A stretch of 64,000 bases of DNA from Acidimicrobiia bacterium (lineage in GTDB: Bacteria; Actinomycetota; Acidimicrobiia; Spongiisociales; Spongiisociaceae): contig JBFGLM010000010.1 of assembly GCA_041576165.1 (NCBI GenBank), positions 1-64,000 on the forward strand. The letters are read 5' to 3'. Positions 550-19,433 of this stretch are shown piece by piece (position 1 is the first letter of the stretch; every line of letters begins with the position of its first letter). The position numbers were made by a program, and so were the translations under genes. The notes under the pieces were generated by a model that saw only the letters and a list, made by a program, of their open reading frames with translations, made no database searches and was not told the DNA's origin.

Positions 550-1248
550 ATGATTGCGAAAGGCGCGGCGCGCCCGTATCTGGTCGAGGTCGCCGGCGTG
601 GCCGGGTCGGGCAAATCGACCCTCGCCAAGGCGCTGCTGGCCGGGGATGGCTATGTGCAGGGTGAATTCATCCACACTCGCTCGCCGGTGCACCTTGCGT
701 ACGTCGCTCGCAGCATCCCCCGGCTGCTCCCGATTCTGATTGCAGGGGGCATGCGCAAACCGCGCGTGAGCTGGCGCGAATTCAAGCTGATGGCGTACGT
801 CACCGAATGGCGTCGGTTCCTGTACAACCGGCAGCGTTATCGGAACCGGACCGTGGTCCTCGATCAAGGTCCGATCTATGCGCTTGTGCGGTTGAAGGCG
901 CTCGACAGTGGTATCGCGAACACCCGGTCATTCCATCGCTGGTGGAACGAAATGATGAGGTCGTGGTCGGATGCGCTCGATGACCTGATTTGGCTGGACG
1001 CGCCCGACCACCTGCTCTTGCAGCGGATCGATGGCCGCCAGCAAGCGCACGTGGTCAAAGGAGAGCGTGCCGACGTGAGCCTCCGCTTCATCACTCGCTA
1101 TCGCAGCATGTTCGAGGATGCGATCCGCACCCTCGAAGACCTGGGGGGTCCACCGGTAATACGCTTCAACACCGCCCGTGATGCGCCGGACCGAATCGCG
1201 GCCGTGGTGAACTCGGCCGTCTCTGCGCGGGACAGATCGTCCAAATAG
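550..1248 (+). CDS. P-loop NMP-kinase-fold protein (thymidylate kinase-like)
   Basis: Walker A GVAGSGKST, VVLDQG, DDLIWLDAP...LLQRIDGR lid motif. Confidence 0.7.
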   Translation: MIAKGAARPYLVEVAGVAGSGKSTLAKALLAGDGYVQGEFIHTRSPVHLAYVARSIPRLLPILIAGGMRKPRVSWREFKLMAYVTEWRRFLYNRQRYRNRTVVLDQGPIYALVRLKALDSGIANTRSFHRWWNEMMRSWSDALDDLIWLDAPDHLLLQRIDGRQQAHVVKGERADVSLRFITRYRSMFEDAIRTLEDLGGPPVIRFNTARDAPDRIAAVVNSAVSARDRSSK

Positions 1249-2598: not shown

Positions 2599-4125
2599 AT
2601 GAACACCGAACAGACGAACCAGACGCTTCATGCCTTCGACCCCGGTTCCGAGGACGCGGCTTCCCTCAAGCCCCTGCGAAAGATCGAACGCATCCTCCAG
2701 CGATTTGAGACCGATGGCCTCTCGTACTGCCACTGGAAGAGCAACTACCACGTGGCGTACGCGCTGGCCGGACGCGAGGATGTCGACTTGCTCGTCGCGG
2801 AGTCCGACAACCCCCGGCTCGTCCAGATCTTGCTGGCAGAGGGGTTCAAACAGGCGGACAGCGCGGCCAACCGGCGGCAACCGGGCGTCTTTCACTATCT
2901 AGGAAACGACGAGGACACCGGGACGCTGATCAACTTTCACACGTACACCCGCATCCTGACCGGTGACCACTTCACCAAATGCTGGGCCCTGCCGTTCGAG
3001 CGTCTCCTCCTGGCTGAGACCCGACTCGAGCACGGAATGCGTGTTCCACCCAAAGCACACGACCTGATCGTCTACGTCGTCCGGAACATGATCAAGCAGA
3101 CGACCCCCTACGACCTGTGGCAGCTCGCTCGAGCTGGAGAAGCGACCATTGCGGAATACGAGTGGTTGACGGAGGGCGGCGAGGCGCACGAATGGCATAC
3201 TCCGCTCGCCCGTCACTTTCCCGAGCTCACGACCGCCGACTTCGAACGGGCGATCCGCATGCTCACCGGCCCGGCCGGCTTGACCGGGCGGATCAGGCAG
3301 GGACGTCGCTTCACGCGCGCACTGCGAAAGTACCGCCGTTATGGCTGGTGGCGTCAGACCGCCACCTCGGCCTATCTGCTGGCGCAGATGGCGATCAACA
3401 AGTTCGGCCGCAACGAGAAGCACATGAACCCGGTGCACGGCGGGAAACTGATCGCATTCGTGGGTCCCCAGGCCACTGGGAAGTCGACGCTCGCCGGCGC
3501 CGTACGCGAGTGGCTGGGCGCCGAATTGGCGGTACGGTCGATTCACGTCGGGAAACCCCCCAGCACGTGGTACACCTGGTTGCCGTCCAGGCTGATTCCG
3601 CTTGCGCGGATGCTGCGGCCCGACCAACGCACCACGACGATCGAGTTGACGCAAAGCGAGGATTTTCCGCTGATCTTCATTGTGCGCAAGGTCATGCTGG
3701 CGCTGGAGCGGAGACGGCTGCTGCGTCGGGCCTTTCGTCAGAGCCGCAACGGACGGATCGTGCTGTGCGACCGGTATCCATCCGACGTAGCAGGCGCCGT
3801 CGACGGGGTGAGCTTCACGGACACGGCAATCGAGTGCGAAACGTCGCCGCTGAAGACTGCGCTCATGCGATGGGAGCAGCAGATCTACGACGAGATCCAT
3901 CCGCCGGATCTCGTCATTCAGCTCGTGGTGCCGGAGGAGGAGGCCGTGCGGCGCAACCTGGTCCGCATCAAGGAGGACAATCAAACGACGGACTACGTGC
4001 GCGCCCGTCACAGCCAGGAGATCGTGCCGGAGTTTCATCGGTGCCCGGTGATCGAGCTCTCCACCCTGCGAGATCTGGAAGAAACGGTCTTGGACTTGAA
4101 AAGACGGATATGGGCACGCTTATAG
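2599..4125 (+). CDS. Nucleotidyltransferase-like N-terminal domain fused to thymidylate-kinase-like P-loop domain
   Basis: YCHWKSN...GREDVDLLV (DxD) at the N-terminus; AFVGPQATGKST and VLCDRYP at the C-terminus. Confidence 0.65.
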   Translation: MNTEQTNQTLHAFDPGSEDAASLKPLRKIERILQRFETDGLSYCHWKSNYHVAYALAGREDVDLLVAESDNPRLVQILLAEGFKQADSAANRRQPGVFHYLGNDEDTGTLINFHTYTRILTGDHFTKCWALPFERLLLAETRLEHGMRVPPKAHDLIVYVVRNMIKQTTPYDLWQLARAGEATIAEYEWLTEGGEAHEWHTPLARHFPELTTADFERAIRMLTGPAGLTGRIRQGRRFTRALRKYRRYGWWRQTATSAYLLAQMAINKFGRNEKHMNPVHGGKLIAFVGPQATGKSTLAGAVREWLGAELAVRSIHVGKPPSTWYTWLPSRLIPLARMLRPDQRTTTIELTQSEDFPLIFIVRKVMLALERRRLLRRAFRQSRNGRIVLCDRYPSDVAGAVDGVSFTDTAIECETSPLKTALMRWEQQIYDEIHPPDLVIQLVVPEEEAVRRNLVRIKEDNQTTDYVRARHSQEIVPEFHRCPVIELSTLRDLEETVLDLKRRIWARL

Positions 4126-4204
4126 ACAATCGGACCACCCGCGTGTCGGCAGGTCAGATGCTCGATCCGGCTTGCCATGTCGCTTGGTTGGATTGCAGGC
4201 ACTC

Positions 4205-5113
4205 ATGAAGCATCCCCGCGTATCCGACTCAGCTATCGCTCGCCTTACGGAGGGCACCGCCATATCGATGGCGCTGTCTCCGGCCGGGCCGAATCTGCGG
4301 TTCACCTGCACCTCGGTGGAGCAACGAAACTGGTCGCGGGTGGCGTTCGGAGTCGCGGTCGACGGTGGTTCCGCCCAGGAGCTCTTCCTCAAGCAGTTCA
4401 TCGACCGCGGCGGCCGACCACTGAGCCAGCAATACGAGTCTGAGCTCATCGCACATCCACTGGCCACGGGCGTGCTGGGCGGGGTGGCCTCCGTGCCCGG
4501 TATCCTGGCGGTGAACGGGCCGGCGTTGACCATCGGATACGAGCCGGTATCGATGATGCCGATGGACACACTCCTGCGGTCAGATTCCGCCCGCTTCACC
4601 CGAGAGTTTCCCGGAATGCTCGAGACGGTGGAAGCAGTGCTCACTGCACTCGCGGGCGTCGGCCGGCAGCAGTTAGACCCGGCCGTTATCGAGGGCCAAG
4701 CCAACACGGATGGTGTGCTGACCTTCAAGGGGCTCGACTTCCGCAACCTCGGTGTAGGGACCCGTGCGGACGGACCATTCATTTTCGACTTTGGCAAGGC
4801 GTATCTGGCGCCGATAGCCGACGCCGCGGCCCGCTACCTCGTCTCGATAGCGTTGCTGAACTGGGGCCGCCCCCTAGGTCGCTTCGTACGCGGTCCCAAT
4901 CCCGAGCTGATCGAAGCGGCATCTCGCGTGCTGGGCAGGTTCACGAGCCTCGAGGCCGTGCTGTACCGGTTGCAGCAGGAGGCGGCCTACCGGCAGGCCG
5001 AGGTCCAGTCCGGATCGCTGGTAGAACACGTCGGCAAGGTGGCAGGTATCACGGCCCTCGGTGGCCGGTACGCAGCCGCGACCCGCCGCCTGTTCAGAAG
5101 AGCCCTCGCCTGA
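4205..5113 (+). CDS. Hypothetical protein, possible atypical protein-kinase-like phosphotransferase
   Basis: LFLKQF, KGLDFRNL and FIFDFG in PKL-like order; start uncertain (4172/4205). Confidence 0.45.
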   Translation: MKHPRVSDSAIARLTEGTAISMALSPAGPNLRFTCTSVEQRNWSRVAFGVAVDGGSAQELFLKQFIDRGGRPLSQQYESELIAHPLATGVLGGVASVPGILAVNGPALTIGYEPVSMMPMDTLLRSDSARFTREFPGMLETVEAVLTALAGVGRQQLDPAVIEGQANTDGVLTFKGLDFRNLGVGTRADGPFIFDFGKAYLAPIADAAARYLVSIALLNWGRPLGRFVRGPNPELIEAASRVLGRFTSLEAVLYRLQQEAAYRQAEVQSGSLVEHVGKVAGITALGGRYAAATRRLFRRALA

Positions 5114-5171: not shown

Positions 5172-7475
5172 CTAGGCGTCCGAACCCGTCAGCTGCTCAT
5201 CTTCTGCGCTGTGGGTGGTCTCCTCCGGAGCTACGAACACCTGCTCACCCTGTTGAACGGCGTCGAGGATGAGTTGAGCGATCTCCGGGCGCATGAACCA
5301 TGTTGGTGGCGCTTCGCCTCGGAGGAACATGGCCCTCGCCTCGGTCCCACTGATGAACCCGTAGAGCTGGTCATCGTCCTCGGTGTGCTCGCTGCGCTCG
5401 ACATACTGGCCGAGCGCATCGGAGTAGACGACCTCGTCGAATTTGACGACCGAGATCCCGAGGTCGGGGAATTGATCGAAGATTTCGTGCGAAGCGTACG
5501 GCCCGTAGTAATCACCGACGCCCGTGTGGTCCCGGCCCACCACGAAATGGCTGCACCCGAAGTTCTTGCGGCACAGCGCCGTGAAGAGGGCCTCGCGCGG
5601 TCCGGCGTATCGCGAGTAAGTGGCGAATGCCGCGCAAACCACTTTGTCCTTGGGGTAGAAGTCCTCGATCATTCGCTCGTAACTGCGGATGATGTAGGAC
5701 GCGCGGTAGTCGCCGAACTTCTTCTTCCCGACGACCGGCTGGACCAACAGGCCGTCGCAATGTGTCTCCTCCATGGCGCGGTACTGGATGTACTCGTGTC
5801 CACGGTGGATGACATTGCGGGTGTGGAACCCAACGACCTTTTCCCAGCCCCGCTCACGGAAAAGCCGGCGGAGCTGAGGGGGCGTGAGCTCGTAGGGCCG
5901 CGTCTCGGAATGCCGGGGCCGCAACAGGCTGATCTGGCCGGCCAGCAGCACCGGACCCATCATCTCCATGGCGAGAACTCCCGGGTGATCCAGATTGCTC
6001 GTGCCAAACAACTTCTGCGCTGACTCCTTCTTGTCGAAGGTGAATTTCTCGCGCAGATCGAGCAGTGCCATGAGGTTTCCGTCTGTACCCGTGAGCCCGA
6101 CCACCTGGCCGATCACCAGCCGGTCCGCTACCTCGGGATCGACATCGAGGACCACCGGCAATGGCCAAACAGTCCCGTCTGACAGCCGCATATCACTCAG
6201 CACCGAATGGAAATCATGTTCGCCCATGAAGCCGTCGAGCGGGCTGTAGGTACCTACGGCTATCTGCTCGACTTCCATCTGCTTGTTTTCGTCGAGGGCT
6301 ATCTTCGGCAAGGATGCGAGGAACCGCTCGTCCGGCATTCGGGTCAGGACCCGGTTGACCAGGCGCCCGCCGTGCGGCGGGGTGAGCGAGGTGGTCACAC
6401 CTTCCAGCAGGTACGGCGAGCGCTCGAGCGACCTGACGAACGTGTCGTGAGCCTCAACGACGTGCCCATCCATCACCACTTCCGCATGGCGAATGAGACG
6501 GCTCAACATGTTGATGCACTCGAGCGGATACCGACCTACGGCCGTCTCAGCAGCCAGCGTCAGACCATCGGCCCCATCGAGCACCGTATTCACAACGTCC
6601 TGAACTTCGGCGCGGGTGGGATTGCGCGTCTCGATCATCGTCTCCAGCAGATTGGTCGCCACGAATACCGGCGTCCGTTGCTGGCGCGCTTTCTGCATGA
6701 TGATCTTCTGCGTGAACGGGATCTTCTCGAGGGGGATCTCCTTGCTGAGGTCGCCCCGATCGATCAGCAACATGTCAGATTGCTGGACGATCTCGTCGAG
6801 GTGTTCGAGTGCATCCACACACTCGATCTTGGAGATTATCTTCATCTTGCCCTGGGTGGCCCGACGCGCTTCACGGATGGATTCGGCGGATCGGACGAAC
6901 GACACCGCGATATGTTCGACACCGGCCTTCAGCCCGATGTTGATCGACTGGTAGTCCTTGGGTGAGAGGGCAGGGAGCCGGAACTTGTTGTCGAAGATCG
7001 GATCGACAACCACCGCTTTGTTGTTTCCGATTTTGCCGCCCGATATGACCCGGGCCGCCACGCGGCCCTCAGAGGACCTCGACACGTCCGTTACCCGCAG
7101 GACCAACGTGTCAAAATCGATGTGGAGCAGATCTCCTTCGGCCAGCTGATCGAGGACGTGGGCGGGCCGCAAAACGATGTTCTGGGCATCGCCGACGATA
7201 TCGCCGCAGCGCAGGGTGACTTCGTCGTTTTCGCCAAAATAGATTGCGTTTCGGTCCAGGCGACCGGTCCTGATCTGCGACCCCTCGGTGTCGAGCACGA
7301 ACGGAATTCCCACGCCCTTGGCCCGCGCAATCGACTCCTCGAGGTATTCCAAGCTCGAGTGCGACATGTTGACTCGAACGAAATTGACCCCTTTGTCCTT
7401 CATGGCCAGGAGATGTGCTTCGGTATCCGAAGCCGGCCCCAGCGTGACGATTATGCTCGTTCTTCTCTCAGCCAC
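5172..7475 (-). CDS. sat: Pyruvate kinase (barrel + B domain) fused to sulfate adenylyltransferase (Sat-type ATP sulfurylase)
   Basis: PK motifs TLGPAS, RVNMSH, SKIE, RGDL, PTRAE, AETAVGRYP. Sat motifs PHGG, YSPLDGFM, HTRNVIHRGHE, YAGPREA, RKNFGCSHFVVGRDH, ISGT. Single open frame; GTG start with GAGGGG RBS. Confidence 0.92.
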   Translation of the reverse strand: MAERRTSIIVTLGPASDTEAHLLAMKDKGVNFVRVNMSHSSLEYLEESIARAKGVGIPFVLDTEGSQIRTGRLDRNAIYFGENDEVTLRCGDIVGDAQNIVLRPAHVLDQLAEGDLLHIDFDTLVLRVTDVSRSSEGRVAARVISGGKIGNNKAVVVDPIFDNKFRLPALSPKDYQSINIGLKAGVEHIAVSFVRSAESIREARRATQGKMKIISKIECVDALEHLDEIVQQSDMLLIDRGDLSKEIPLEKIPFTQKIIMQKARQQRTPVFVATNLLETMIETRNPTRAEVQDVVNTVLDGADGLTLAAETAVGRYPLECINMLSRLIRHAEVVMDGHVVEAHDTFVRSLERSPYLLEGVTTSLTPPHGGRLVNRVLTRMPDERFLASLPKIALDENKQMEVEQIAVGTYSPLDGFMGEHDFHSVLSDMRLSDGTVWPLPVVLDVDPEVADRLVIGQVVGLTGTDGNLMALLDLREKFTFDKKESAQKLFGTSNLDHPGVLAMEMMGPVLLAGQISLLRPRHSETRPYELTPPQLRRLFRERGWEKVVGFHTRNVIHRGHEYIQYRAMEETHCDGLLVQPVVGKKKFGDYRASYIIRSYERMIEDFYPKDKVVCAAFATYSRYAGPREALFTALCRKNFGCSHFVVGRDHTGVGDYYGPYASHEIFDQFPDLGISVVKFDEVVYSDALGQYVERSEHTEDDDQLYGFISGTEARAMFLRGEAPPTWFMRPEIAQLILDAVQQGEQVFVAPEETTHSAEDEQLTGSDA

Positions 7476-7751
7476 ACGTTCCCCTCACATGATGTGGCCC
7501 GGGTGGTCGATTTCCGACGGCCTGGCGCCTGCTATCGCGCGCCAAACGGCCAAATTCCAGAAATCATCACCTTGCGGAAAACCCCCGGCCAAACCTTTCT
7601 CAGGCGAGCGTAGCGTTGCCGCGAACCTAAATGAGGGTCGATGTCTGCCCACCGACATGCACCGTATTGGTCCACTCCAGCCCCGCCGGCGAGGACCGCC
7701 GCCACCGGCGGCGGCGTCCCGGCCGCCGGCTCCGTCCGGGCCGAGCGGCCG

Positions 7752-8645
7752 TCATCGCAAGGGTTCGAGCCAGTGGTCGAGATCGAGACCGGTGAGCCCG
7801 GCGCATTTCGTGATCTGCTCTTCGAGGTGCTCCGTCATCTGTCTCCGCAGCTCGGCGGGCAGCGGCGGCGGCTTGTCCATGTTGGACGTCCGGAGCTTGC
7901 GCAGCCGGTCGGCGAAACCTCTCGGCACGATCGGCTTCAGTGCGGAGCGAAAGAAGCGGTTGGTCAGCAAGCGTTCCAGCCACATGCTGGAGGGGACGCC
8001 GCCCACATTGTGGGGCGTCGAGAGGTCGGGCTCGAAGTCGGGCGCCACGCCCAGAAATCGATATACACCCTGCACAGTTTCGAGCGTGTGCTCCATCAGA
8101 TCCTGGGAGAGGAATATGTGCAATTGCTCCCGCGGAAACAAGTCGAAGTAGCGGGAGAGTTGCTCGTGGTACCGGCCCAAACGCATCCAGTGCGACTCGG
8201 GCTGAACCCATTCGGCAGACAAGGCCAGATCACGGCTTGGTTCGATCCGCCGCCGCCCTTGCTTGCGCAGGTACATCAGGTAGTCGGAGTACGCGCGATC
8301 AACCGGATTGCGAAGACTGCAGATGATCCGGGCCGTTGGCAGCATCTCATGGATCCGGGCGGCCGCGTGCGGCGTCTCCAGGTAGATCGGTGAGACATCG
8401 CCGACGACCTTGGCATCGCCGGCGTCGGTGAACAGCGCCTCGTATTCGGCCAGGGTCGTGATGGGCCAATGGTGCAGCTCGGGGTCGCCGTAGAGCAGCT
8501 CTCCCGACTCGTCGACGGCGTATGCGAAATAGCCGATGTGGTGCCTGGGTCCCATGTAGATCTCGGGATGTTCGTCGAGATACCAAAACAGAGCGGTGGT
8601 GCCGGATTTGGTTCCGCCGATGACGATGGCATTCGGGAGCGCCAT
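7752..8645 (-). CDS. PAPS-dependent sulfotransferase (Sulfotransfer_1/3 type, heparan-sulfate O-sulfotransferase-like motifs)
   Basis: 5'-PSB PNAIVIGGTKSGTTAL; 3'-PB LRNPVDRAYS. Confidence 0.9.
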   Translation of the reverse strand: MALPNAIVIGGTKSGTTALFWYLDEHPEIYMGPRHHIGYFAYAVDESGELLYGDPELHHWPITTLAEYEALFTDAGDAKVVGDVSPIYLETPHAAARIHEMLPTARIICSLRNPVDRAYSDYLMYLRKQGRRRIEPSRDLALSAEWVQPESHWMRLGRYHEQLSRYFDLFPREQLHIFLSQDLMEHTLETVQGVYRFLGVAPDFEPDLSTPHNVGGVPSSMWLERLLTNRFFRSALKPIVPRGFADRLRKLRTSNMDKPPPLPAELRRQMTEHLEEQITKCAGLTGLDLDHWLEPLR

Positions 8646-8690: not shown

Positions 8691-9635
8691 CTAGACAATC
8701 CGCAACCCCTTCCGGGACAGGAAGCGGAGGGGCCGGTACACGAGATGCACTTTGAGCCGGGAGGCCGCGACGTTGAACTCGTTGAACTTGCCGGGAAGCG
8801 TGCGCGTGTACTCCTCGACTGCGGTTTCAAGACTCGGCCCGAACTCCTGTCGGTAGGAGGGAAAGAGCTCGTTGCGGACGTAGTTCCAGAGTTCCAGGTC
8901 GACCTGGTGTGCTTCGTGGAGGATATCCAATGTTCGTTGGGTACTCAGCAAATCGTCAGCGATGGTTCGGCGCGGGGCCACGTTGACCTTGCGATACGAG
9001 ATGTTCAAATCGGGCGCAACCAAAGCCTTCAGCAGTACCAGGGACTCGTCGAAGTGCTCTGTCAAGCCCACGAAGATGTTCTTCTTCTCGATGATCCGGA
9101 TCGCTTCGTTCACGTCCTCTACGCCGGCGATCATTTTCGTCTGGCGATTGCGAGTCCAGTCTTGTTGGATCCACTGGTCGAACTCATCCGGCTTGCCGGA
9201 GATCTGCTTCTTGTGCTGAAAGCTCGAGGCGCTTGCCTTCACCGGGTCGCGGATGAGGCTGAAATACTCGATCTCTTCTCCCCGGGGTTCGAGATCCTGG
9301 TATCCGACCACCCGGTGTCCGGCAATGCTCCGCAGCCGCGGATAGAGCCGACGAATGCGATCGAGGTCATCATTGGTGAAAGGTGGGTCTTCCCATATGT
9401 TCGGGTGCCAGGGCTCGACGGCGCAGTGGCGGGTCCCATAGGAGCTACGCAGAACATGGTTGACGGTTGATCCCCCGGTTTTGTTCTGATGGATGTGAAC
9501 AAGCAACTGGAACCTCCCACCCCAAAGAAAGCCTGGCTGCGCGGCGACCGCCGTCTGACGGTCCCGGCCTGCAAATCCTATCAGTGCTCGTGCTCTTCTC
9601 AGCAGGTGTTTGGCGGTCCCGGCGCTTCGGCTCAA
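8691..9635 (-). CDS. Sulfotransferase family 2-type protein
   Basis: HIHQNKTGGST, IRDPV...S, FVGLTEHFDESL, DLELW; overlaps the flippase stop by 4 bp. Confidence 0.75.
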   Translation of the reverse strand: MSRSAGTAKHLLRRARALIGFAGRDRQTAVAAQPGFLWGGRFQLLVHIHQNKTGGSTVNHVLRSSYGTRHCAVEPWHPNIWEDPPFTNDDLDRIRRLYPRLRSIAGHRVVGYQDLEPRGEEIEYFSLIRDPVKASASSFQHKKQISGKPDEFDQWIQQDWTRNRQTKMIAGVEDVNEAIRIIEKKNIFVGLTEHFDESLVLLKALVAPDLNISYRKVNVAPRRTIADDLLSTQRTLDILHEAHQVDLELWNYVRNELFPSYRQEFGPSLETAVEEYTRTLPGKFNEFNVAASRLKVHLVYRPLRFLSRKGLRIV

Positions 9636-11113
9636 GCAGCTTCGTGCCCGTCGGGCGCGGTGCGGCCCGGCACGCCCGGAAGCGCTACGCGGCCGAGCTG
9701 CATGGCTTCACGCGCAAGGCGAGGGTCGACGAGCAGCAAGGCGGCCCCGTAGCTGACAACACCGGTCGTCGTATAGGCCGTTACCTGCCAGCCGAGGCCG
9801 GCGTCGCCCAGGGGGATCTTGATCATCATCACGGCTCCGACCATCAACAGGCCCGCAAGTGCGGGCGAGACGAACTGGCGAGCCAGAGTGCGGAACCGGA
9901 GCCGCACCAACTTGTGAACTGCGTAGATCCACCCGGGCGCGATCGCCAGCAAGACCGACGTCAGCGCGATCGCCACCGACCGGATGCCAAAGCGGACGAC
10001 GATCGAAAAGACGATGACCTGAGCGGCTGCCGTGATACCCATGATCACGACCCGCCATGACGGCTTGCCCAGCGCCTTGAGGACCGTCGAGTTCAAGAAG
10101 GTCACGGTCGTAACGAGTCCCGCGAAGCCGAGCAGCTGCATCACGGGAACACTGGGACCCCACACCGGGCCGAACAGCAGAGCTGTGACCTCTTCGGCAG
10201 TCACGACCACTCCGAGAAACGCGGGGACCGCAATCACCGCGGCGAGACGCGTGGTGCGGTAATAGAGCTCGCGCACGCGATCAATATCGCCTTGCACGCG
10301 AGAGAACGTTGGAAACGCGACGGCGCCGACGACGGCCGTGGTGACGTTGATCATCAGGCGCAGTACCCGGTAGGCAACGACGTAGAAGCCGAGGGCCGTG
10401 GCACCCAGGAAGGCGCCGATCATCAGGTTGTCTATCTGCGTGTTGCCCAGGCGGAAGGCTCGAAACGCGACGACGCTGGCGCCAAACGGCAGCAACTCTT
10501 TGAAATGTGTCCTCGAGAAGCGCATGCGAGGCCGCCAGTCACTGGCGGCCCAGAGCGTGATGACCGAAACCAGCTCAAATGTCAGAGTCTGCGCTACGAG
10601 GCTCCAGACGCCGGCGCCGGCGATGGCGGCCCCCACCCCAATGACGCCGCCGATGACGACGGCCGCCAGCGATCGGACCGCCAGGCTGGCAAAGGCAAAC
10701 TCTCGCGTCAGGATGGCCTTCTGGACGTTGCTGAATCCGCTGATCGCCAACATGGCTGACATCGCGGCGAGAACCGGAGCCAGCTGCGGCTCGCCCAACA
10801 ACCCGGCGAGGGGCCATGCCGCTGCCGCCAGCAACGCCGTCAGCAATGCGCCGAAACCCACGCTCGACCAAAAGGCAGTATCCAGATGGGCCTCCTCGAG
10901 GTCCGGGCGCTGAACGATGGCGTCCGCCATGCCCTGGTCGGCGATGATCTTCAACAGGCTTGTGAAGACCGTGGCGAGGGCCACCAAACCGAACGCCTCC
11001 GGCACCAGGATGCGGGCCAGGATGGTGAAGATGACCAGCGTGGCGAGCTGGTACCCCACCTTGTCGAGAGCCGTCCAGAAGACGCCCCGAGCTGCCACCC
11101 TGCGGAGTGTCAT
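9632..11113 (-). CDS. Polysaccharide flippase (Wzx/MOP, WzxC-like)
   Basis: LARILVPEAFGLVALA, DQGMADAIVQR, LDTAFWS, many TM helices; real start MTLRRVAARG at 11113. Confidence 0.9.
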   Translation of the reverse strand: MTLRRVAARGVFWTALDKVGYQLATLVIFTILARILVPEAFGLVALATVFTSLLKIIADQGMADAIVQRPDLEEAHLDTAFWSSVGFGALLTALLAAAAWPLAGLLGEPQLAPVLAAMSAMLAISGFSNVQKAILTREFAFASLAVRSLAAVVIGGVIGVGAAIAGAGVWSLVAQTLTFELVSVITLWAASDWRPRMRFSRTHFKELLPFGASVVAFRAFRLGNTQIDNLMIGAFLGATALGFYVVAYRVLRLMINVTTAVVGAVAFPTFSRVQGDIDRVRELYYRTTRLAAVIAVPAFLGVVVTAEEVTALLFGPVWGPSVPVMQLLGFAGLVTTVTFLNSTVLKALGKPSWRVVIMGITAAAQVIVFSIVVRFGIRSVAIALTSVLLAIAPGWIYAVHKLVRLRFRTLARQFVSPALAGLLMVGAVMMIKIPLGDAGLGWQVTAYTTTGVVSYGAALLLVDPRLAREAMQLGRVALPGVPGRTAPDGHEAA

Positions 11114-11554
11114 GCTCGGCCCGCTCGCGCGCGGGCCACGGGTGGAACACGCCCAGTCGTGACCTTTTGGCTCGACAGCGCGACAACCCGCGCGAGCCCC
11201 TGTCGGTACCTTCGCCCCAGCATCGAGTCGCACATCTTCGCAGGTCACCCCCGACCGTTCCGCCCCCACTTGCCGATCCGCCCGCGCCCCGGTGAGCGTG
11301 ATCCGGTTCACCGAACAATACCGGGGTCTGTGCGCCACACGCAGAGCGCCCCTGTCGGATTCGCGAGGTCGTTCCGGCCGGACCCCGCCCCGAGGGCGGG
11401 CGCGGATCCGTCTCCCGCGATGGCCGGCCGACTGCTCGATCCACAGCCACAGGTGGTTCGTTTTCACCTAGCTTCGCGACCCCTGGTAAGTTGGCGACTG
11501 TCCTAAATCGGACGTTCGGGCATCCGGTGGTTTTAGGTAGGGAAAGGGAGAACC

Positions 11555-12853: not shown

Positions 12854-13107
12854 CGACAGCTCCCGGGTCAGCCGCGAACCCGAACCGAGCACGGGCGGAG
12901 GATTGCCGGGTCGGGGCCGCTCGGTTCCGGTGCGACTACGCCATCGACGTGGGGTTTCGACCGCCCGGAGCTCTGGACCAGATCCAATCGCCGGTTGGTG
13001 CCGCGCGCCCTTGACTTGGTCACATGGGTGCCCGCACATGGCGCTCGAAGGGCGGTCGTGTCGCTGGTGACCGGCGATCGCTGCGCTCCGCGCGCAGAAA
13101 TCTCAGT

Positions 13108-13450: not shown

Positions 13451-14383
13451 ATGGGAAGAAGGGTTAGCCGGGGGAGCCGCAGCTCGGTCGCGTTCGATCC
13501 GGCGGGCAAGTCCAGTAGGACATTCGAGAGTCAGGTCACCGCGAGCTCTGACTCGGTAGTGGTGATTCGACCGGCAAGCAATGGTATCGATTTGGGCATC
13601 GATATACGCCGTTCCGGCATGCTGGGTCTGGACGCGACGCTGGCCAGGCCGGGGGGGCTGGGAGTCAGCCTGGCTCCTGGTACGGCGGCGCTCATGCGGC
13701 GTTTCGGACTACACCGAATCACGGCCCGCCCCCGCGAGGAGGGCCCGGTCGTATTCGACCGCATACGGGCGGGCGTGAAGCGAGCAATCGACATCATCGT
13801 CTCCGCCACGGCGATCACAATTCTGGCGCCGGTGTGGCTCGTAATCGCAGCTGCAGTCGCGATGACCTCCGAAGGTCCGATCATTTACCGCCAGATTCGG
13901 GTCGGCCGCGACGGACGGCCTTTCGAGATGTTGAAGTTCCGGTCGATGGTGGCCGACGCCGCTGAGAAGGTGCATGAAATGAATGCGCTGGCCGAGAACG
14001 GAGACGTCGATGTCGTTGACGCCCCGGCGTTCAAGTGTGCAGACGACCCCCGGGTCACCCCGGTCGGGCGCATAATCCGGCGGGCCAGCCTCGACGAGCT
14101 GCCGCAGCTGCTCAACGTGCTCAGAGGCCATATGTCGCTCGTCGGGCCGCGGCCGATAGAGCCGGTGGAGCTCAACACGCTTCCGCCTGATTTGATTGCC
14201 GTGCGCCAAGCCGTCCGTCCCGGGCTGACCTGCCTGTGGCAGGTGCTCCGCTACGACGGGATGTCGTTCGGCGAGCGGATCGAGCTCGATCTGACCTACG
14301 TTCGCCGGCGCTCGCTCGTATTGGACCTGGTGCTGCTAATACTCACCCCGATCGCGATTCTGAGCGGAGAAGGCGCCTTCTGA
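13451..14383 (+). CDS. Priming (undecaprenyl-phosphate) sugar-1-phosphate transferase
   Basis: KRAIDI, YRQIRVG, KFRSM, DPRVTPVGRIIRRASLDELPQLLNVLRGHMSLVGPRP, RPGLT; start uncertain. Confidence 0.9.
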   Translation: MGRRVSRGSRSSVAFDPAGKSSRTFESQVTASSDSVVVIRPASNGIDLGIDIRRSGMLGLDATLARPGGLGVSLAPGTAALMRRFGLHRITARPREEGPVVFDRIRAGVKRAIDIIVSATAITILAPVWLVIAAAVAMTSEGPIIYRQIRVGRDGRPFEMLKFRSMVADAAEKVHEMNALAENGDVDVVDAPAFKCADDPRVTPVGRIIRRASLDELPQLLNVLRGHMSLVGPRPIEPVELNTLPPDLIAVRQAVRPGLTCLWQVLRYDGMSFGERIELDLTYVRRRSLVLDLVLLILTPIAILSGEGAF

Positions 14384-17130: not shown

Positions 17131-17345
17131 CTACCCCACCCAACCAGTGACAGAATGGCTCATATCGTACACTCTACGACACCCGGGTTTCTGCGCAACC
17201 GGCCGGCGGACGCCGCGTGTGCCCGGCTCACCACCGCAGCCGACCCTCCAGCCGGGTCGCGCGGCACGTCTGGAACAGGAACGGGGCCGGGCTACGATTC
17301 TTGTCTCGCGATATCCGGCGAATTAAGCATCCCAGAAGGTTCCAA

Positions 17346-19433
17346 TTGACACAGACGTTCGAGCAATCGACAGCCTCCGACACCGATCCGATCCGCGCTC
17401 TCCGCCAATACCCACTGATAGTGGTCGTGTTTGCGGTGGCGTTTGGAATACTGGGTGCTGGGTTCGCTTCCAGCCAGCCCCCGACGTTTGTCGCCACTGC
17501 GGGGCTCGTTGTTGAGGATGCGCGGACATCCGGGCTGTTTGACAGCCGCGCGGGCGACGCCGAACGCTATGTGGCCGATCAGGTAGCGATCTTGCGTTCC
17601 GCCGCGGTTGCGGAGCGAGCCAGTGCGCTGGCTCTCACCCTCGAGCCGCCGGCGGAAATATCCGCGTCCGAATTCGAAGCCAACCTGGCGCTCAGCTCCA
17701 GCGTCGACACCAGCTTCATCGAAATCAGCTTCAGTGCCGACGACCCCACCACTGCCCAGAGCGGCGCCGACGCCATCGGGATGTCGTACCAGGAGGTCAT
17801 CAGTGCGGCTTTGGCGGAGGACGCGCAGACCGCCATCGCCCGGCTGGATCAAGCAATCGACGAAACCGTGGCCGAGATCGGCCTGATCCAGGCCGAAGTG
17901 GAGGCCGTGCGTGCCGACAACGAGGACCGGGTGCTGCTGGACGACCAGCTGGCTGAAATCGTTGCCGAGTTGGTCGAGCTGCGCAACGTCGCCGGCGGAA
18001 ACCCAACGGGAGCCAACGATCTTGCGACCGTCGGAGAAATCGACCGGGTCACCGCCCGGGCCGAGCAGCTGAGTGCCGAGCTCAGCGCCCGGCTGCTCGT
18101 GTCCGACGTGGAAGCGCGGCTCCCCAAGACGTCGGTGCTCTTGCGTCAGCAGCAGGATGCGGCGGCACTGCTCAGTGAGCTCACCTTGCAGCGCAGCCAG
18201 ATCGAGGTCGACTCGCAGCTGGCCGGCAACGGCGTCGCGTTCTTCGCGCCCGCCGGGCCCGGGCAGCGGGCGGGCATCGCATCGAGATCGGCCGTCCTCG
18301 TGTCGGTGGTGCTGGGCGGGTTCGTCGGATCGGGCGTCGCCTACTGGCTCAGCCAGCGGCGCCAGCGGGTGGAAGACCGGTTGACGCCACGCAATATCCT
18401 CGGTGTGCCGCTGCTGGTCGACATTCCCGGCCCCCGGGCCGGTTCGGCTCTGCTGGCGCGGTCGCGGCTCCAGGAGCCGGTGAGCAGCGTGCCCGTACTG
18501 GAAGACCCCACCTCGCCGCAGGCCAACGCGTTTCGGATACTTGCGGGTGCTCTGCATCGCCAGCTGCGCGAATGGCGAGTCGAGCCGGAACCCGTCGACG
18601 ACGAGGGCGCATGGTCACAGCATGGCATGATCGTCGCCTGTCTTGCGGCCGAGGCCAGGGAATCCAACCCGCCCGTTGCGTTGAACCTGGCACTCGCGGC
18701 CGGGCAAACGGGTCTGCGGGTGGCGCTCGTCGAGGCCGACCTGGTGCCGCGCGACCTGTCCCGGTTGGTGCGTCGGGCGTACGTCCGTCCGTCGACCGCC
18801 GGCCTCGCCGAGATCATCCAAGGCACGGCCACGCTGGAAGGCTCACTGGGGCGGATTGAGCTGGGCGACGGAGGCGAAATCTCAGTGCTCGGGCTGGGCA
18901 GCGGTTCGAACTCCCCTGAGCTCTTCGGCTCACAAGCGTTTGGCTCCATCATGTGGAAGCTGGCCGAAGGGCACGATCTCGTGGTCCTGAGCCTGCCGCC
19001 GGTCATGGAGGTTCCGCACGCCGCCGCCATCCAGCAGGCGGACAAGGCGTTGCTGGTGGTCCAGCACGGCACCGGTGCCAGTCACCTGGAGGAGGCCCGT
19101 CACCGGATGGACATAATGGGCGTACCGATGGCGGGCTACGCGTACATAAACACTCCCACCCGGGCCCCGGCTCGGCCGCGGCGGCCGGTCCGGCCGGTTA
19201 CCGACGGCAACGGCGATCTCTATGACGACTTCACGCGGATCAAAGGGATCGGCCCGCGCATTCAGGATCTGCTACACGATGAGGGGATCACGACCCTCGA
19301 GGAGCTCGCAGCCACTACCCCTGCGCGTCTCCGACAAATCCTCGAGGCGGCCGGCCCCGGCTACGCCATCCATGATCCGGCAAACTGGCCGCATCTGGCC
19401 AGCCTCAGCCGGTACGGACCGCGCCGGAGATGA
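17346..19433 (+). CDS. Wzz/Wzc-like polysaccharide co-polymerase with degenerate kinase domain and C-terminal helix-hairpin-helix domain
   Basis: TM-coiled coil-TM layout, LGVPLL, AFRIL, LNLA...RVALVEADL; C-terminal DDFTRIKGIGPRIQDLL; probable TTG start at 17346. Confidence 0.78.
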   Translation: MTQTFEQSTASDTDPIRALRQYPLIVVVFAVAFGILGAGFASSQPPTFVATAGLVVEDARTSGLFDSRAGDAERYVADQVAILRSAAVAERASALALTLEPPAEISASEFEANLALSSSVDTSFIEISFSADDPTTAQSGADAIGMSYQEVISAALAEDAQTAIARLDQAIDETVAEIGLIQAEVEAVRADNEDRVLLDDQLAEIVAELVELRNVAGGNPTGANDLATVGEIDRVTARAEQLSAELSARLLVSDVEARLPKTSVLLRQQQDAAALLSELTLQRSQIEVDSQLAGNGVAFFAPAGPGQRAGIASRSAVLVSVVLGGFVGSGVAYWLSQRRQRVEDRLTPRNILGVPLLVDIPGPRAGSALLARSRLQEPVSSVPVLEDPTSPQANAFRILAGALHRQLREWRVEPEPVDDEGAWSQHGMIVACLAAEARESNPPVALNLALAAGQTGLRVALVEADLVPRDLSRLVRRAYVRPSTAGLAEIIQGTATLEGSLGRIELGDGGEISVLGLGSGSNSPELFGSQAFGSIMWKLAEGHDLVVLSLPPVMEVPHAAAIQQADKALLVVQHGTGASHLEEARHRMDIMGVPMAGYAYINTPTRAPARPRRPVRPVTDGNGDLYDDFTRIKGIGPRIQDLLHDEGITTLEELAATTPARLRQILEAAGPGYAIHDPANWPHLASLSRYGPRRR

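What the first reader, a model, noticed from the sequence alone, without database searches (positions are those of the whole stretch)
5172..7475. Pyruvate kinase fused to ATP sulfurylase inside a sulfated-glycan locus
Seen: one 767-aa frame. About aa 1-335 is a pyruvate kinase barrel with the catalytic motifs intact (SKIE, RGDL, AT, PTRAE) but with variant signatures (DTEGSQ for DTKGPE, IDRGDLS, ATNLLE, LAAET). The allosteric C domain is absent and a complete Sat-type ATP sulfurylase takes its place. Known: Sat is usually alone or fused to APS kinase, APS formation is strongly uphill, and CysDN solves this with a GTPase. Inference: this is a PEP-driven sulfate-activation module that regenerates ATP locally for APS/PAPS synthesis serving the two adjacent sulfotransferases. 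I know of no characterised PK-Sat fusion.
Basis: partly seen in the sequence, partly recalled or inferred. Interest (0 to 1): 0.88.

Follow-up and report, generated by a model that had tools for sequence, protein, structure and literature searches.

The report
Pyruvate kinase fused to ATP sulfurylase
This is a real, widespread but apparently unstudied enzyme in which a trimmed pyruvate kinase is welded to the enzyme that activates sulfate, most likely so that the cell can make its sulfate donor for sulfated sugars with ATP regenerated on the spot from phosphoenolpyruvate.

Summary
Window 5172-7475, minus strand, is one 767-aa gene. It carries a complete pyruvate kinase (PK) A+B barrel with no C domain, a linker, and a complete Sat-type ATP sulfurylase.

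It is not a chimera. All 120 listed database relatives share the architecture. In 80 of 83 fetched loci both halves lie in one frame. Contigs from three runs bridge the junction.

Both halves belong to special subfamilies. The PK half falls in a clade of 123 C-domain-less PKs (support 99). All catalytic residues are kept, but the motifs are DTEGSQ, IDRGDLS and ATNLLE. The Sat half has two of its three sulfate contacts changed: FQTRN to FHTRN and GRDHAG to GRDHTG.

APS kinase is fused to, or lies within 3 kb of, the gene in 41 of 83 loci. PK-APS kinase fusions without Sat also exist. Sulfotransferases are the next commonest neighbours.

Best reading: a PAPS-synthesis module with built-in PEP-driven conversion of ADP to ATP. 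No biochemistry exists and I found no paper on it. New variant of a known kind; interest about 0.6.

The parts
5172..7475 (-). Whole gene: 767-aa PK(A+B)-linker-PUA_2-ATP sulfurylase fusion, GTG start, stop codon at 5172-5174
   Evidence: AF2 mean pLDDT 92.2, pTM 0.90
7481..7486 (-). GAGGGG ribosome-binding site, ending 5 nt before the GTG start
   Evidence: read directly from the sequence
6513..7466 (-). Pyruvate kinase barrel (A domain plus B lid), aa 4-321. R34, N36, S38, D62, T63, R69, K216, E218, D242, T274 and E310 are conserved. Variant residues are E64, S66, Q67, D239, S244, N275 and A308.
6978..7262 (-). PK B (lid) domain, about aa 72-166. It is the predicted contact surface with the Sat half (residues 82-163).
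   Evidence: position between DTEGSQIRTG and LPALSPKD; complex prediction interface
6381..6512 (-). Linker, aa 322-365, including the last PK helix and a helix at 342-352. It stands where the PK C domain would begin. This is the fusion junction.
   Evidence: pLDDT 76-86; contigs of runs X1, X3 and X5 bridge it
5922..6380 (-). PUA_2 N-terminal domain of the ATP sulfurylase, aa 366-518
5265..5894 (-). ATP sulfurylase catalytic domain, aa 528-737. FHTRN is at 550-554, H557xxH560 follows, and GRDHTG is at 647-652. H551 and T651 replace the Gln and Ala that contact sulfate in characterised enzymes.
7752..8645 (-). Sulfotransferase (Sulfotransfer_3 / Sulfotransfer_1), upstream on the same strand and separated from the fusion gene by 276 nt
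8691..9635 (-). Second sulfotransferase-like gene (borderline Gal-3-O-sulfotransferase match, 27.2 bits). Relatives lie next to fusions in other loci.
9632..11467 (-). Wzx-type polysaccharide flippase (Polysacc_synt_3)
13451..14383 (+). Priming sugar transferase (Bac_transf)
17217..19433 (+). Wzc-like chain-length determinant / tyrosine autokinase. All matches are far below the curated cut-offs (best 42.3 bits vs 108.05).

Best explanation
The gene encodes a two-enzyme module for making the sulfate donor of an exopolysaccharide sulfation pathway.

The C-terminal half is a working ATP sulfurylase: ATP + sulfate -> APS + PPi. The N-terminal half is a working pyruvate kinase that has lost its allosteric/tetramerisation C domain: PEP + ADP -> pyruvate + ATP.

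In the full pathway an APS kinase turns APS into PAPS and releases ADP. That kinase is fused or adjacent in many relatives. Here it is supplied in trans by the Sat-CysC protein on contig C85.

The PK half converts that ADP back to ATP beside the sulfate-activating sites. This keeps local ATP high and ADP low. It would relieve the ADP-dependent dead-end inhibition of APS kinase and pull the unfavourable Sat equilibrium through the kinase step. The net reaction is sulfate + ATP + PEP -> PAPS + PPi + pyruvate.

Shown here: the architecture, conservation of catalytic residues, a single clade for the PK half, the genomic link to APS kinase and sulfotransferases, and a predicted fixed contact between the PK lid domain and the Sat catalytic domain.

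Inferred: that the PK half is catalytically active on ADP, and that there is any kinetic benefit.
For: 1. Complete domains with high scores. The AF2 model has pLDDT 92.2 and pTM 0.90.

2. In 125 family members, R34, N36, S38, D62, T63, R69, K216, E218, D242, T274 and E310 are invariant. These are the PK cation, PEP and phosphate residues, by alignment to 2e28 and PykF. So the PK half is under purifying selection as an enzyme.

3. Rosetta-stone evidence. Among the 150 nearest cluster representatives of the PK half there are 80 PK-Sat, 3 PK-Sat-CysC and 2 PK-CysC without Sat (Pfam-confirmed). L006 is a 929-aa PK-Sat-APS kinase protein.

4. In 83 loci, APS kinase is fused in 8, directly adjacent on the same strand in 26, within 3 kb in 7, within 10 kb in 1, and not found in the DNA held in 41. 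Thirteen of those 41 have less than 700 nt of downstream DNA. Among the 30 loci with at least 3 kb on both sides, 23 have it fused, adjacent or within 3 kb.

5. Neighbour census. Of 136 products of the first two downstream genes, 23 match APS_kinase, 15 Sulfotransfer_1, 14 Sulfotransfer_3 and 4 Inositol_P (the Pfam family that, by my recall, includes CysQ). Of 120 products of the first two upstream genes, 11 match Sulfotransfer_3, 9 Sulfotransfer_1 and 3 APS_kinase.

6. L109 has Sat and PK as separate adjacent genes in the reverse order.

7. Engineered precedent. In vitro PAPS synthesis nearly fails without a PK/PEP ATP-regeneration system. The authors attribute this to a dead-end APS kinase-ADP-APS complex (PMC9885120, passages read).

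8. Gln at PK position 117 occurs in Crenarchaeota PKs. The characterised members of that branch carry Ser, Arg or Val there and are active without K+ (PMC4374775, passages).

9. Complex prediction with the two halves as separate chains gave a score of 0.70 against a best control of 0.00. That mark was reached by 58 of 80 solved complexes and 2 of 110 mismatched pairs. The runs agree in at least 81% of contacts, and the partner's pLDDT is at least 88. The interface is PK B-domain residues 82-163 on Sat 519-542 and 600-613. No PDB entry covers both halves, so the pass is not from memory of a solved complex.
Against: - No enzyme assay exists for any member.
- The window itself has no APS kinase. 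The only one in the genome is already fused to an ordinary Sat on contig C85, so any coupling here must work in trans.
- 41 of 83 loci show no APS kinase in the DNA held.
- The Pacearchaeota MAG G437 has the fusion but no convincing APS kinase (best 22 bits). Its completeness is unknown.
- The DPANN MAG G627 keeps an intact variant PK (328 aa, all motifs, 58% identical to the L007 and L008 PK halves) in the same glycan locus. That genome has no Sat and no real APS kinase. So the PK may serve something besides Sat and CysC.
- Five residues around the PK active site differ invariantly from canonical PKs: E64, Q67, D239, S244 and N275. Their effect is unknown.
- Sat itself produces no ADP, so the PK-Sat pairing is not explained by stoichiometry alone.
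Confidence: 0.6

Rival explanations
1. The PK half is an active kinase with a broader or different job. It recycles nucleoside diphosphates in general (UDP, GDP, CDP as well as ADP) for the whole glycan-biosynthesis locus. Its fusion to Sat is only one of several attachments.
For: - G627 keeps the variant PK in a glycosyltransferase locus without any Sat or APS kinase in the genome.
- Stand-alone short members (29 of 147 rows), a PK-CBS form and forms with unknown extensions lie scattered through the same clade.
- The loci are rich in nucleotide-sugar enzymes. Cytidylyltransferase occurs in 17 loci, NeuB in 14 and epimerase/dehydratase in 23 (family names).
- Canonical PKs accept several NDPs (my recall, not tested here).
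Against: - The dominant architectures by far join the PK to adenine-nucleotide enzymes: 80 PK-Sat, 3 PK-Sat-CysC and 2 PK-CysC of 150.
- The two halves are predicted to dock specifically.
- G627 is a 0.7-Mb MAG of unknown completeness.
Confidence: 0.15
2. The PK half no longer turns over substrate usefully. Instead it is a PEP- or nucleotide-sensing regulatory or structural domain. Its lid (B domain), docked on the Sat catalytic domain, would switch Sat on when PEP or energy is plentiful.
For: - The predicted interface uses the mobile B domain of PK, whose closure depends on substrate binding.
- pTM 0.90 suggests a rigid assembly.
- The active-site surroundings are invariantly altered at E64, Q67, D239, S244 and N275.
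- The normal regulatory C domain is gone.
Against: - Every residue needed for chemistry is invariant across bacteria and archaea down to about 32% overall identity. A mere sensor would not be expected to keep them all.
- PK-CysC fusions fit a substrate/product relation (ADP) better than a sensor does.
Confidence: 0.12
3. The remodelled Sat half (His and Thr in place of the Gln and Ala that contact sulfate) acts on a different oxyanion, or works mainly in the reverse direction. The module would then not be a PAPS-synthesis device.
For: - H551 is present in 125 of 125 fusions and T651 in 124 of 125.
- The pair is strictly linked: 67 H/T, 47 Q/A and no mixed cases among 120 short Sat hits.
- In A. 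vinosum ATPS the sulfate oxygens of APS bind Gln199, Arg201 and Ala299-NH (PMC3779200 passage).
Against: - APS kinase, sulfotransferases and Inositol_P-family (CysQ-like by my recall) genes are the commonest neighbours. That fits sulfate and the forward direction.
- The Arg, Asn and HxxH residues are kept.
- The Ala contact is through the backbone, which a Thr preserves.
Confidence: 0.06
4. Assembly chimera or mis-joined frame.
For: The genome is a 161-contig MAG with 7.5% estimated contamination.
Against: - 120 of 120 listed relatives have the same three domains.
- 564 of 597 pattern matches in metagenomes encode a relative. In 80 of 83 loci examined both halves lie in one frame.
- Contigs of runs X1, X3 and X5, from two studies, bridge 6380-6470. 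X1 may be the source sample.
Confidence: 0.01

Closest known systems
Bifunctional Sat-APS kinase PAPS synthases (e.g. Aquifex aeolicus 2gks, human PAPSS; NCBIfam NF004040)
   Same: The Sat domain is fused to another enzyme of the same pathway so that intermediates or nucleotides are handled locally. Some relatives of the window protein carry the APS kinase as a third domain (L006, 929 aa; P0127, P0157 and P0200).
   Different: The window protein has no APS kinase domain (NF004040 scores 295 against a cut-off of 669). Its extra domain is N-terminal and is a glycolytic kinase that belongs to no sulfur pathway.
CysDN, the GTPase-coupled sulfate adenylyltransferase
   Same: It is another way of spending an extra high-energy phosphate to get sulfate activated.
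   Different: It is an unrelated fold (CysD is a PAPS_reduct/PP-loop protein; no such domain occurs here or anywhere in the genome). CysN couples GTP hydrolysis allosterically to the adenylyl transfer itself (recalled). A PK can only act through the ATP/ADP pool.
Stand-alone Sat-type ATP sulfurylases (M. thermolithotrophicus 8a8d, T. thermophilus 1v47, A. vinosum 4dnx)
   Same: 42% identity to 8a8d with TM 0.93 on the target. The PUA-like and catalytic domains, the HxxH motif and the Arg/Asn of the RNP loop are all present.
   Different: FQTRN becomes FHTRN and GRDHAG becomes GRDHTG, changing two of the three sulfate contacts. This H/T type also exists unfused.
Canonical pyruvate kinases (PykF 1pky, G. 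stearothermophilus 2e28; TIGR01064)
   Same: A complete A+B barrel with all catalytic residues. The genome also has an ordinary 488-aa-frame PK on contig C4.
   Different: There is no C domain. Residues 113/114/117/120 (rabbit numbering) read T/E/Q/T, which is neither the K+-dependent T/K/E/T set nor the K+-independent L/Q/K/hydrophobic set (abstract of PMC8835810). The motif differences are IDRGDLS for VARGDLG and ATNLLE for ATQMLE. The PK half forms a separate clade (support 99).
Engineered in-vitro PAPS cascades with PK/PEP ATP regeneration (PMC9885120)
   Same: The same set of activities is combined for the same purpose: PK removes the ADP made by APS kinase and restores ATP.
   Different: There the enzymes are separate commercial or recombinant proteins mixed in a tube. 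Here nature has fused them and, by prediction, docked them.

Membership tests
Pyruvate kinase (EC 2.7.1.40) | PK barrel (A+B domains), Pfam PF00224 above cut-off | tested here: met
   245.9 bits against a cut-off of 30; profile positions 2-328 of 328
Pyruvate kinase (EC 2.7.1.40) | C-terminal alpha/beta (allosteric, tetramer-forming) domain; full-length equivalog score | tested here: not met
   No PK_C hit. TIGR01064 scores 295.4, below its cut-off of 306.4, and the matches end at about position 344 of 476.
Pyruvate kinase (EC 2.7.1.40) | Catalytic and metal residues. Rabbit numbering, recalled: R72, N74, S76, D112, T113, R119, K269, E271, D295, T327, E363. | tested here: met
   R34, N36, S38, D62, T63, R69, K216, E218, D242, T274 and E310 align with 2e28 and PykF. 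They are invariant in 125 of 125 family members.
Pyruvate kinase (EC 2.7.1.40) | Position 117 is Glu (K+-dependent class) or Lys (K+-independent class) | tested here: not met
   It is Gln (Q67) in 125 of 125. Other residues at 117, Gln among them, occur in Crenarchaeota PKs; the characterised ones (Ser, Arg, Val) are active (PMC4374775).
Pyruvate kinase (EC 2.7.1.40) | PEP + ADP -> pyruvate + ATP activity | not testable with these tools
   Needs an enzyme assay.
Sat-type ATP sulfurylase (EC 2.7.7.4) | PUA_2 plus ATP-sulfurylase domains; curated NCBIfam cut-offs | tested here: met
   NF003166 425.5 against 387; TIGR00339 349.2 against 322.95; Pfam E 4e-75 and 2e-43
Sat-type ATP sulfurylase (EC 2.7.7.4) | HxxH nucleotidyl-transfer motif and the Arg/Asn of the RNP loop | tested here: met
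   H557-R-G-H560, R553 and N554 are each conserved in 124 of 125.
Sat-type ATP sulfurylase (EC 2.7.7.4) | The Gln of QTRN and the Ala of GRDHAG, which contact the sulfate of APS | tested here: not met
   H551 and T651 stand there instead. All 17 other Sat frames from the phylum have Q and A. The roles of these residues are taken from PMC3779200.
Bifunctional PAPS synthase (Sat-CysC) | APS kinase domain in the same polypeptide | tested here: not met
   No PF01583 hit in the protein or anywhere in the 64-kb window. It is present in relatives.
CysDN sulfate adenylyltransferase | CysD PP-loop domain (PAPS_reduct family) and CysN GTPase | tested here: not met
   No such domains in the protein. No PF01507 match in the genome, which is 96.5% complete.

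The most novel reading that the evidence does not exclude
This would be a third natural solution to the uphill sulfate-activation problem, beside the CysN GTPase and the simple pull by APS kinase and pyrophosphatase. It would be a PEP-powered PAPS synthase. The mobile lid (B domain) of a C-domain-less pyruvate kinase is docked on the ATP sulfurylase catalytic domain. ATP made from PEP would then be handed on, or lid closure mechanically coupled, to a Sat with a redesigned high-affinity sulfate pocket (His/Thr). The three parts (variant PK, H/T-type Sat, APS kinase) would form a mobile toolkit. It has moved between bacteria, CPR bacteria and DPANN archaea, which would use it to sulfate their surface glycans at low energy charge.
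Probability: 0.2. Interest if true: 0.85.

Novelty: new variant of a known kind. Interest (0 to 1): 0.6.

Why it matters
PAPS supply limits biological sulfation and also the enzymatic production of heparin- or chondroitin-like sulfated polysaccharides. Engineers already add pyruvate kinase and PEP to PAPS-making enzymes to get usable yields (PMC9885120).

This family suggests that microbes evolved the same trick as a single polypeptide, sometimes as a three-enzyme PK-Sat-APS kinase chain.

If active, these proteins would be ready-made, self-regenerating PAPS synthases. They would also be a clean system for studying how a glycolytic kinase is stripped of its regulation and rewired to serve one pathway.

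They also mark sulfated-glycan loci in poorly known lineages, including Anaerolineae, Saccharibacteria and DPANN archaea. Many copies are currently annotated as glycolytic 'pyruvate kinase', which can mislead metabolic reconstructions. In two DPANN MAGs the fusion is the only PK-family match.

Tried and rejected
- **Chimera.** Rejected.
- **Degenerate PK.** Rejected, because the catalytic residues are invariant.
- **AAA_33 P-loop gene at 550-1248 as a hidden APS kinase.** No support. My APS kinase HMM finds nothing in the window even at E 10. NCBIfam gives only weak gluconokinase-type P-loop matches.
- **Local iterative search for sulfotransferases from three seeds.** It found only 14 proteins in 11 sources (10 fetched loci plus the window). 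I judged it too insensitive and replaced it with the Pfam census.
- **Greedy gene calling.** It picked wrong-strand ORFs over the two sulfotransferases in the GC-rich window. The neighbour censuses may therefore miss or mis-call genes in GC-rich loci.
- **RNA evidence.** No RNA holder was listed for the stretch.
- **Short PKs in DPANN genomes G565 and G680.** They have canonical motifs and lie in unrelated contexts, so they say nothing about this family.
- **Literature.** Three full-text searches found nothing on a PK-Sat fusion: PK + ATP sulfurylase + fusion; PK + sulfate adenylyltransferase + domain architecture; the same with 'fused'. I read the matching passages of two candidates, PMC10839748 and PMC6775978, and they are unrelated. 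Subscription-journal papers and supplements were not searchable, so a mention there cannot be excluded.
- **Tree limits.** The PK tree is a FastTree tree. Its outgroup is only the 22 canonical-length PKs: 19 of the nearest library representatives plus the genome's own PK and two relatives' PKs, with two short canonical-motif rows falling among them. No AU test was run. No tree of the Sat half was built.
Full report
**What is there**

The finding's coordinates are exact, but the gene lies on the minus strand. It runs 5172..7475 and encodes 767 aa, starting at a GTG. A GAGGGG ribosome-binding site ends 5 nt upstream.

Pfam places three domains:
- a complete pyruvate kinase barrel at aa 4-321 (profile positions 2-328 of 328, E 7.7e-73);
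- a PUA_2 domain at aa 366-518;
- an ATP-sulfurylase domain at aa 528-737 (E 4.2e-75).

NCBIfam passes the protein as a sulfate adenylyltransferase above curated cut-offs. Every pyruvate kinase model stops at about position 342 of roughly 477 and stays below cut-off. The allosteric C domain of PK is therefore missing, and the Sat begins where it would stand.

The AF2 model, built from a 75-sequence alignment, has mean pLDDT 92.2 and pTM 0.90. Only the linker (aa 322-365, pLDDT 76-86) and the last 13 residues are less sure. In the PDB the best match for the Sat half is the Methanothermococcus thermolithotrophicus ATP sulfurylase. The PK half matches ordinary PKs. No entry covers both halves.

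**Surroundings**

The gene sits in a Wzx/Wzy-type exopolysaccharide locus. Upstream on the same strand are:
- a sulfotransferase (7752-8645);
- a second, weaker sulfotransferase-like gene (8691-9635);
- a Wzx-type flippase (9632-11467);
- an unassigned 523-aa gene.

Nearby are two GT4 glycosyltransferases, a priming sugar transferase, and a gene with weak, sub-cut-off Wzc-like tyrosine autokinase matches.

The genome is a 5.1-Mb MAG of 161 contigs, 96.5% complete with 7.5% contamination. It also has an ordinary PK (488-aa frame, contig C4). It has a second, ordinary Sat fused to the genome's only APS kinase (contig C85). No PAPS_reduct-family match (CysD/CysH by my recall) was found. The 64-kb window holds no APS kinase.

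**Not an artefact**

All 120 listed hits of a database search have the same three Pfam domains. One of the 120 is the window's own protein. The others are about 750 aa and 62-71% identical. Sources name them 'pyruvate kinase' or 'sulfate adenylyltransferase', and the NCBI names mention Anaerolineae, Ardenticatenaceae and a Promethearchaeota MAG.

A scan of species-representative genomes found the fusion in three more MAGs: Saccharibacteria, Pacearchaeota and Woesearchaeota.

The 80 loci kept range from 32 to 66% identity, mostly over the full length.

In 80 of the 83 loci I examined, both halves lie in one open frame. The three exceptions are:
- L098, with a frameshift inside the PK;
- L051, with an in-frame TGA in the PK and a TAA exactly at the junction;
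- L109, with separate adjacent genes in the order Sat then PK.

Contigs of three public runs from two studies bridge the junction at 6380-6470. One of those runs may be the source sample.

The ESM Atlas lists ten clusters with this architecture. The three largest have 383, 104 and 76 members, with Chloroflexota, Fidelibacterota and Pseudomonadota as the commonest phyla.

The distribution is patchy:
- 1 of 40 close relatives of the window's genome carries it (two of the 40 are unpublished genomes, and neither has it);
- 1 of 400 genomes sampled from the phylum carries it;
- 13 of 301 genomes sampled from the phylum of the Woesearchaeota MAG carry it, counting that MAG itself.

In that last sample the PK halves are up to 63% identical to the window's. 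Such similarity between a bacterium and DPANN archaea points to transfer between domains.

**The PK half is a distinct, conserved subfamily**

In 125 family members the residues that do PK chemistry are invariant: R34, N36, S38, D62, T63, R69, K216, E218, D242, T274 and E310. I identified them by alignment to 2e28 and E. coli PykF. Their roles are recalled from the PK literature.

Several residues beside them are equally fixed but differ from canonical PKs:
- DTEGSQIR in place of DTKGPEIR;
- IDRGDLS in place of VARGDLG;
- ATNLLE in place of ATQMLE.

LAAETA in place of LSGETA is less telling. Position 308 is Ala in 119 of 125 family members but Ser in the window's nearest relatives, and the genome's own housekeeping PK reads LSAETA.

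In rabbit numbering, positions 113/114/117/120 read T/E/Q/T. That is neither the K+-dependent T/K/E/T set nor the K+-independent L/Q/K/hydrophobic set (abstract of PMC8835810, seen in the listing). Residues other than Glu or Lys at 117, Gln among them, occur in Crenarchaeota PKs. The characterised ones (Ser, Arg, Val) are active without K+ (PMC4374775, passages). So Gln does not argue against activity.

A search of 1.84 billion cluster representatives with the PK half alone returned 150 best hits:
- 80 PK-Sat;
- 3 PK-Sat-APS kinase;
- 2 PK-APS kinase without Sat (P0130 and P0180, confirmed by Pfam);
- 65 with a PK match alone. These include one PK-CBS protein (P0140), stand-alone barrels of about 324-376 aa, forms with unassigned extensions, fragments, and the canonical-length PKs, which begin only at E of about 1e-57.

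I built a FastTree tree of 147 near-complete barrels and rooted it on the genome's housekeeping PK. All 123 rows that lack a canonical C domain fall on one side of a branch (SH-like support 99, length 0.52). The 22 canonical-length PKs and two short rows with canonical motifs lie outside. Within that clade the architectures are interspersed.

All 125 fusions have FHTRN and 124 have GRDHTG. All 17 other Sat frames taken from the window's phylum have FQTRN and GRDHAG (one of the 17 is from an unpublished genome).

In the A. vinosum enzyme the sulfate oxygens of APS are held by Gln199, Arg201 and the backbone NH of Ala299 (PMC3779200, passage). These are exactly the Gln and Ala replaced here.

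Among 120 short Sat proteins nearest to the Sat half, 67 are H/T and 47 are Q/A. None is mixed, and 6 lack one motif. The 59 best hits are all of the H/T kind where the motif can be read. Some are full-length stand-alone Sats such as P0272, 394 aa.

So an 'H/T-type' Sat exists on its own and is the type that fuses to the variant PK. I infer, but did not test, that the change tunes sulfate binding rather than changing the substrate. The inference rests on the sulfation context.

**Functional context across the family**

APS kinase was placed in the 83 loci as follows:

| Position of APS kinase | Loci |
|---|---|
| Fused to the PK-Sat frame | 8 |
| Directly adjacent, same strand (22 downstream, 4 upstream) | 26 |
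| Within 3 kb | 7 |
| Within 10 kb | 1 |
| Not seen in the DNA held | 41 |

Thirteen of the 41 loci without one have less than 700 nt of downstream DNA. Among the 30 loci with at least 3 kb on both sides, 23 have it fused, adjacent or within 3 kb.

A Pfam census gave these counts:
- Products of the first two downstream genes (136 proteins from 72 loci): APS_kinase 23, Sulfotransfer_1 15, Sulfotransfer_3 14, Inositol_P 4. By my recall Inositol_P is the family that includes CysQ.
- Products of the first two upstream genes (120 proteins from 67 loci): Sulfotransfer_3 11, Sulfotransfer_1 9, APS_kinase 3, Inositol_P 2, Sulfatase 2.

The two sulfotransferase families probably overlap on the same proteins. 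The gene calls behind this census are crude and failed on two genes in the GC-rich window.

Clustering of all neighbours shows glycan-building genes as the other recurrent company. Epimerase/dehydratases occur in 23 loci, cytidylyltransferases in 17, GT4 in 15 and NeuB in 14 (family names).

**How it most likely works**

Sat makes APS and PPi. APS kinase then makes PAPS and ADP. PK turns ADP and PEP into ATP and pyruvate. The PK-APS kinase fusions, the triple fusions and the adjacency of APS kinase all point to ADP as the link.

The engineered counterpart is instructive. In an in-vitro PAPS cascade the PAPS peak was practically missing without PK/PEP regeneration. The authors attribute this to a dead-end APS kinase-ADP-APS complex (PMC9885120, passages).

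I therefore read the module as PEP-driven ADP removal and ATP supply at the site of sulfate activation. Loss of the C domain would free the PK from glycolytic regulation.

When the two halves were folded as separate chains, the model placed the PK lid (B domain, residues 82-163) on the Sat catalytic domain (519-542, 600-613). The score was 0.70 against a best control of 0.00. That mark was reached by 58 of 80 solved complexes and 2 of 110 mismatched pairs. The runs agree in at least 81% of contacts, and the partner's pLDDT is at least 88. This supports, but does not show, a fixed contact. It leaves open a mechanical or channelling link. All of this is inference from sequence; no activity has been measured.

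**What speaks against it, or complicates it**

- The window has no APS kinase. The genome's only one is fused to a different Sat on another contig.
- About half of the loci show none in the DNA held.
- The Pacearchaeota MAG with the fusion has no convincing APS kinase.
- One DPANN MAG (G627) keeps an intact variant PK in the syntenic glycan locus but has no Sat and no real APS kinase. Both of these MAGs are small (0.7 Mb) and of unknown completeness.
- Sat itself produces no ADP.

A broader NDP-recycling role for the PK therefore stays possible, and so does a sensing role.

**Comparison and novelty**

The nearest known systems are:
- the bifunctional Sat-APS kinase PAPS synthases (same logic, different partner domain);
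- CysDN (same problem, unrelated solution);
- stand-alone Sats and canonical PKs (same folds, altered pockets, no C domain).

I file it as a new variant of a known kind: multifunctional sulfate-activating enzymes. The architecture is already present in databases under automatic names. I found no description or characterisation in three full-text searches. Subscription journals and supplementary files could not be searched.

**Verdict**

| Question | Verdict |
|---|---|
| Observation | Confirmed |
| Confidence in the ADP-to-ATP recycling reading | About 0.6 |
| Interest | About 0.6 |

The family is real, widespread, conserved and untested, and both active sites are remodelled. It has a clear biotechnological parallel. 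The most likely mechanism, however, is intuitive rather than revolutionary.

Noticed in passing
window 7681-7716 (intergenic, between the sulfotransferase gene and the PK-Sat gene): A GC-rich palindromic stretch. Logan contigs of runs X1 and X3 show a joint and loose ends at 7686-7730 (tables 5c and 7). The repeat finder reports two short palindromes there. It could be a hairpin or terminator, or an assembly-graph turn. The 276-nt gap suggests that the PK-Sat gene may have its own promoter.
   Followed up: partly
L051:3129-5327: The PK-Sat reading frame is interrupted by an in-frame TGA (3390) inside the PK half and a TAA (4224) exactly at the PK/Sat junction. The alignment to the query otherwise runs unbroken at 47% identity over 750 columns, and the locus has 36% GC. 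This could be a split form plus a recoded TGA, or a decaying gene.
   Followed up: partly
L109:2313-4478: Sat (H/T type) and variant PK are separate adjacent genes in the reverse order, Sat then PK. This is a natural split form of the fusion.
   Followed up: partly
L131:3886-4872 (genome G627): A 328-aa stand-alone variant PK with all family motifs. It sits in the same locus type (CDP-alcohol phosphatidyltransferase, GT4, GT2) as the L007 and L008 fusions. The genome has no Sat match.
   Followed up: yes
L132:8697-9716 and L133:8676-9719 (genomes G565, G680): DPANN genomes carry 339-347-aa PKs with fully canonical motifs (DTKGPE, VARGDLG, ATQMLD, LSGETA) but no C domain. Their contexts are unrelated (next to a DNA polymerase beta-like gene and to a dihydrouridine synthase). 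C-domain-less but otherwise ordinary PKs therefore exist.
   Followed up: partly
L006:12766-13041, and homologues directly downstream of the fusion in L033, L034 and two other loci: A small (about 91-98 aa) PQ-loop / SWEET-like membrane protein directly follows the PK-Sat(-CysC) gene in 5 loci. Four members match PQ-loop in the census. It may be a transporter half linked to the module.
   Followed up: no
genomes G437 and G438 (loci L007, L008): In these two 0.7-0.8-Mb DPANN MAGs the PK-Sat fusion is the only match to the PK family in the whole assembly. Automatic annotation would credit them with a glycolytic pyruvate kinase that may not be one.
   Followed up: partly
window 2599-4125 (+), 4172-5113 (+), 11468-13039 (-), 15745-17130 (-): Four sizeable ORFs in the locus have no Pfam or NCBIfam match where tested (15745-17130 was scanned against NCBIfam only). 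Relatives of the 508-aa one lie next to fusions in L031, L032 and two other loci. It may be a polymerase-like membrane protein.
   Followed up: no
window 550-1248 (+): A 232-aa P-loop protein with a borderline AAA_33 match and weak gluconokinase-type matches. My HMM does not recognise it as an APS kinase. Its function is unknown.
   Followed up: partly
P0140 (478 aa), P0186, P0192, P0201, P0226: Members of the variant PK clade that carry other C-terminal extensions: a CBS domain in P0140 and unassigned 150-300-aa tails in the others.
   Followed up: partly
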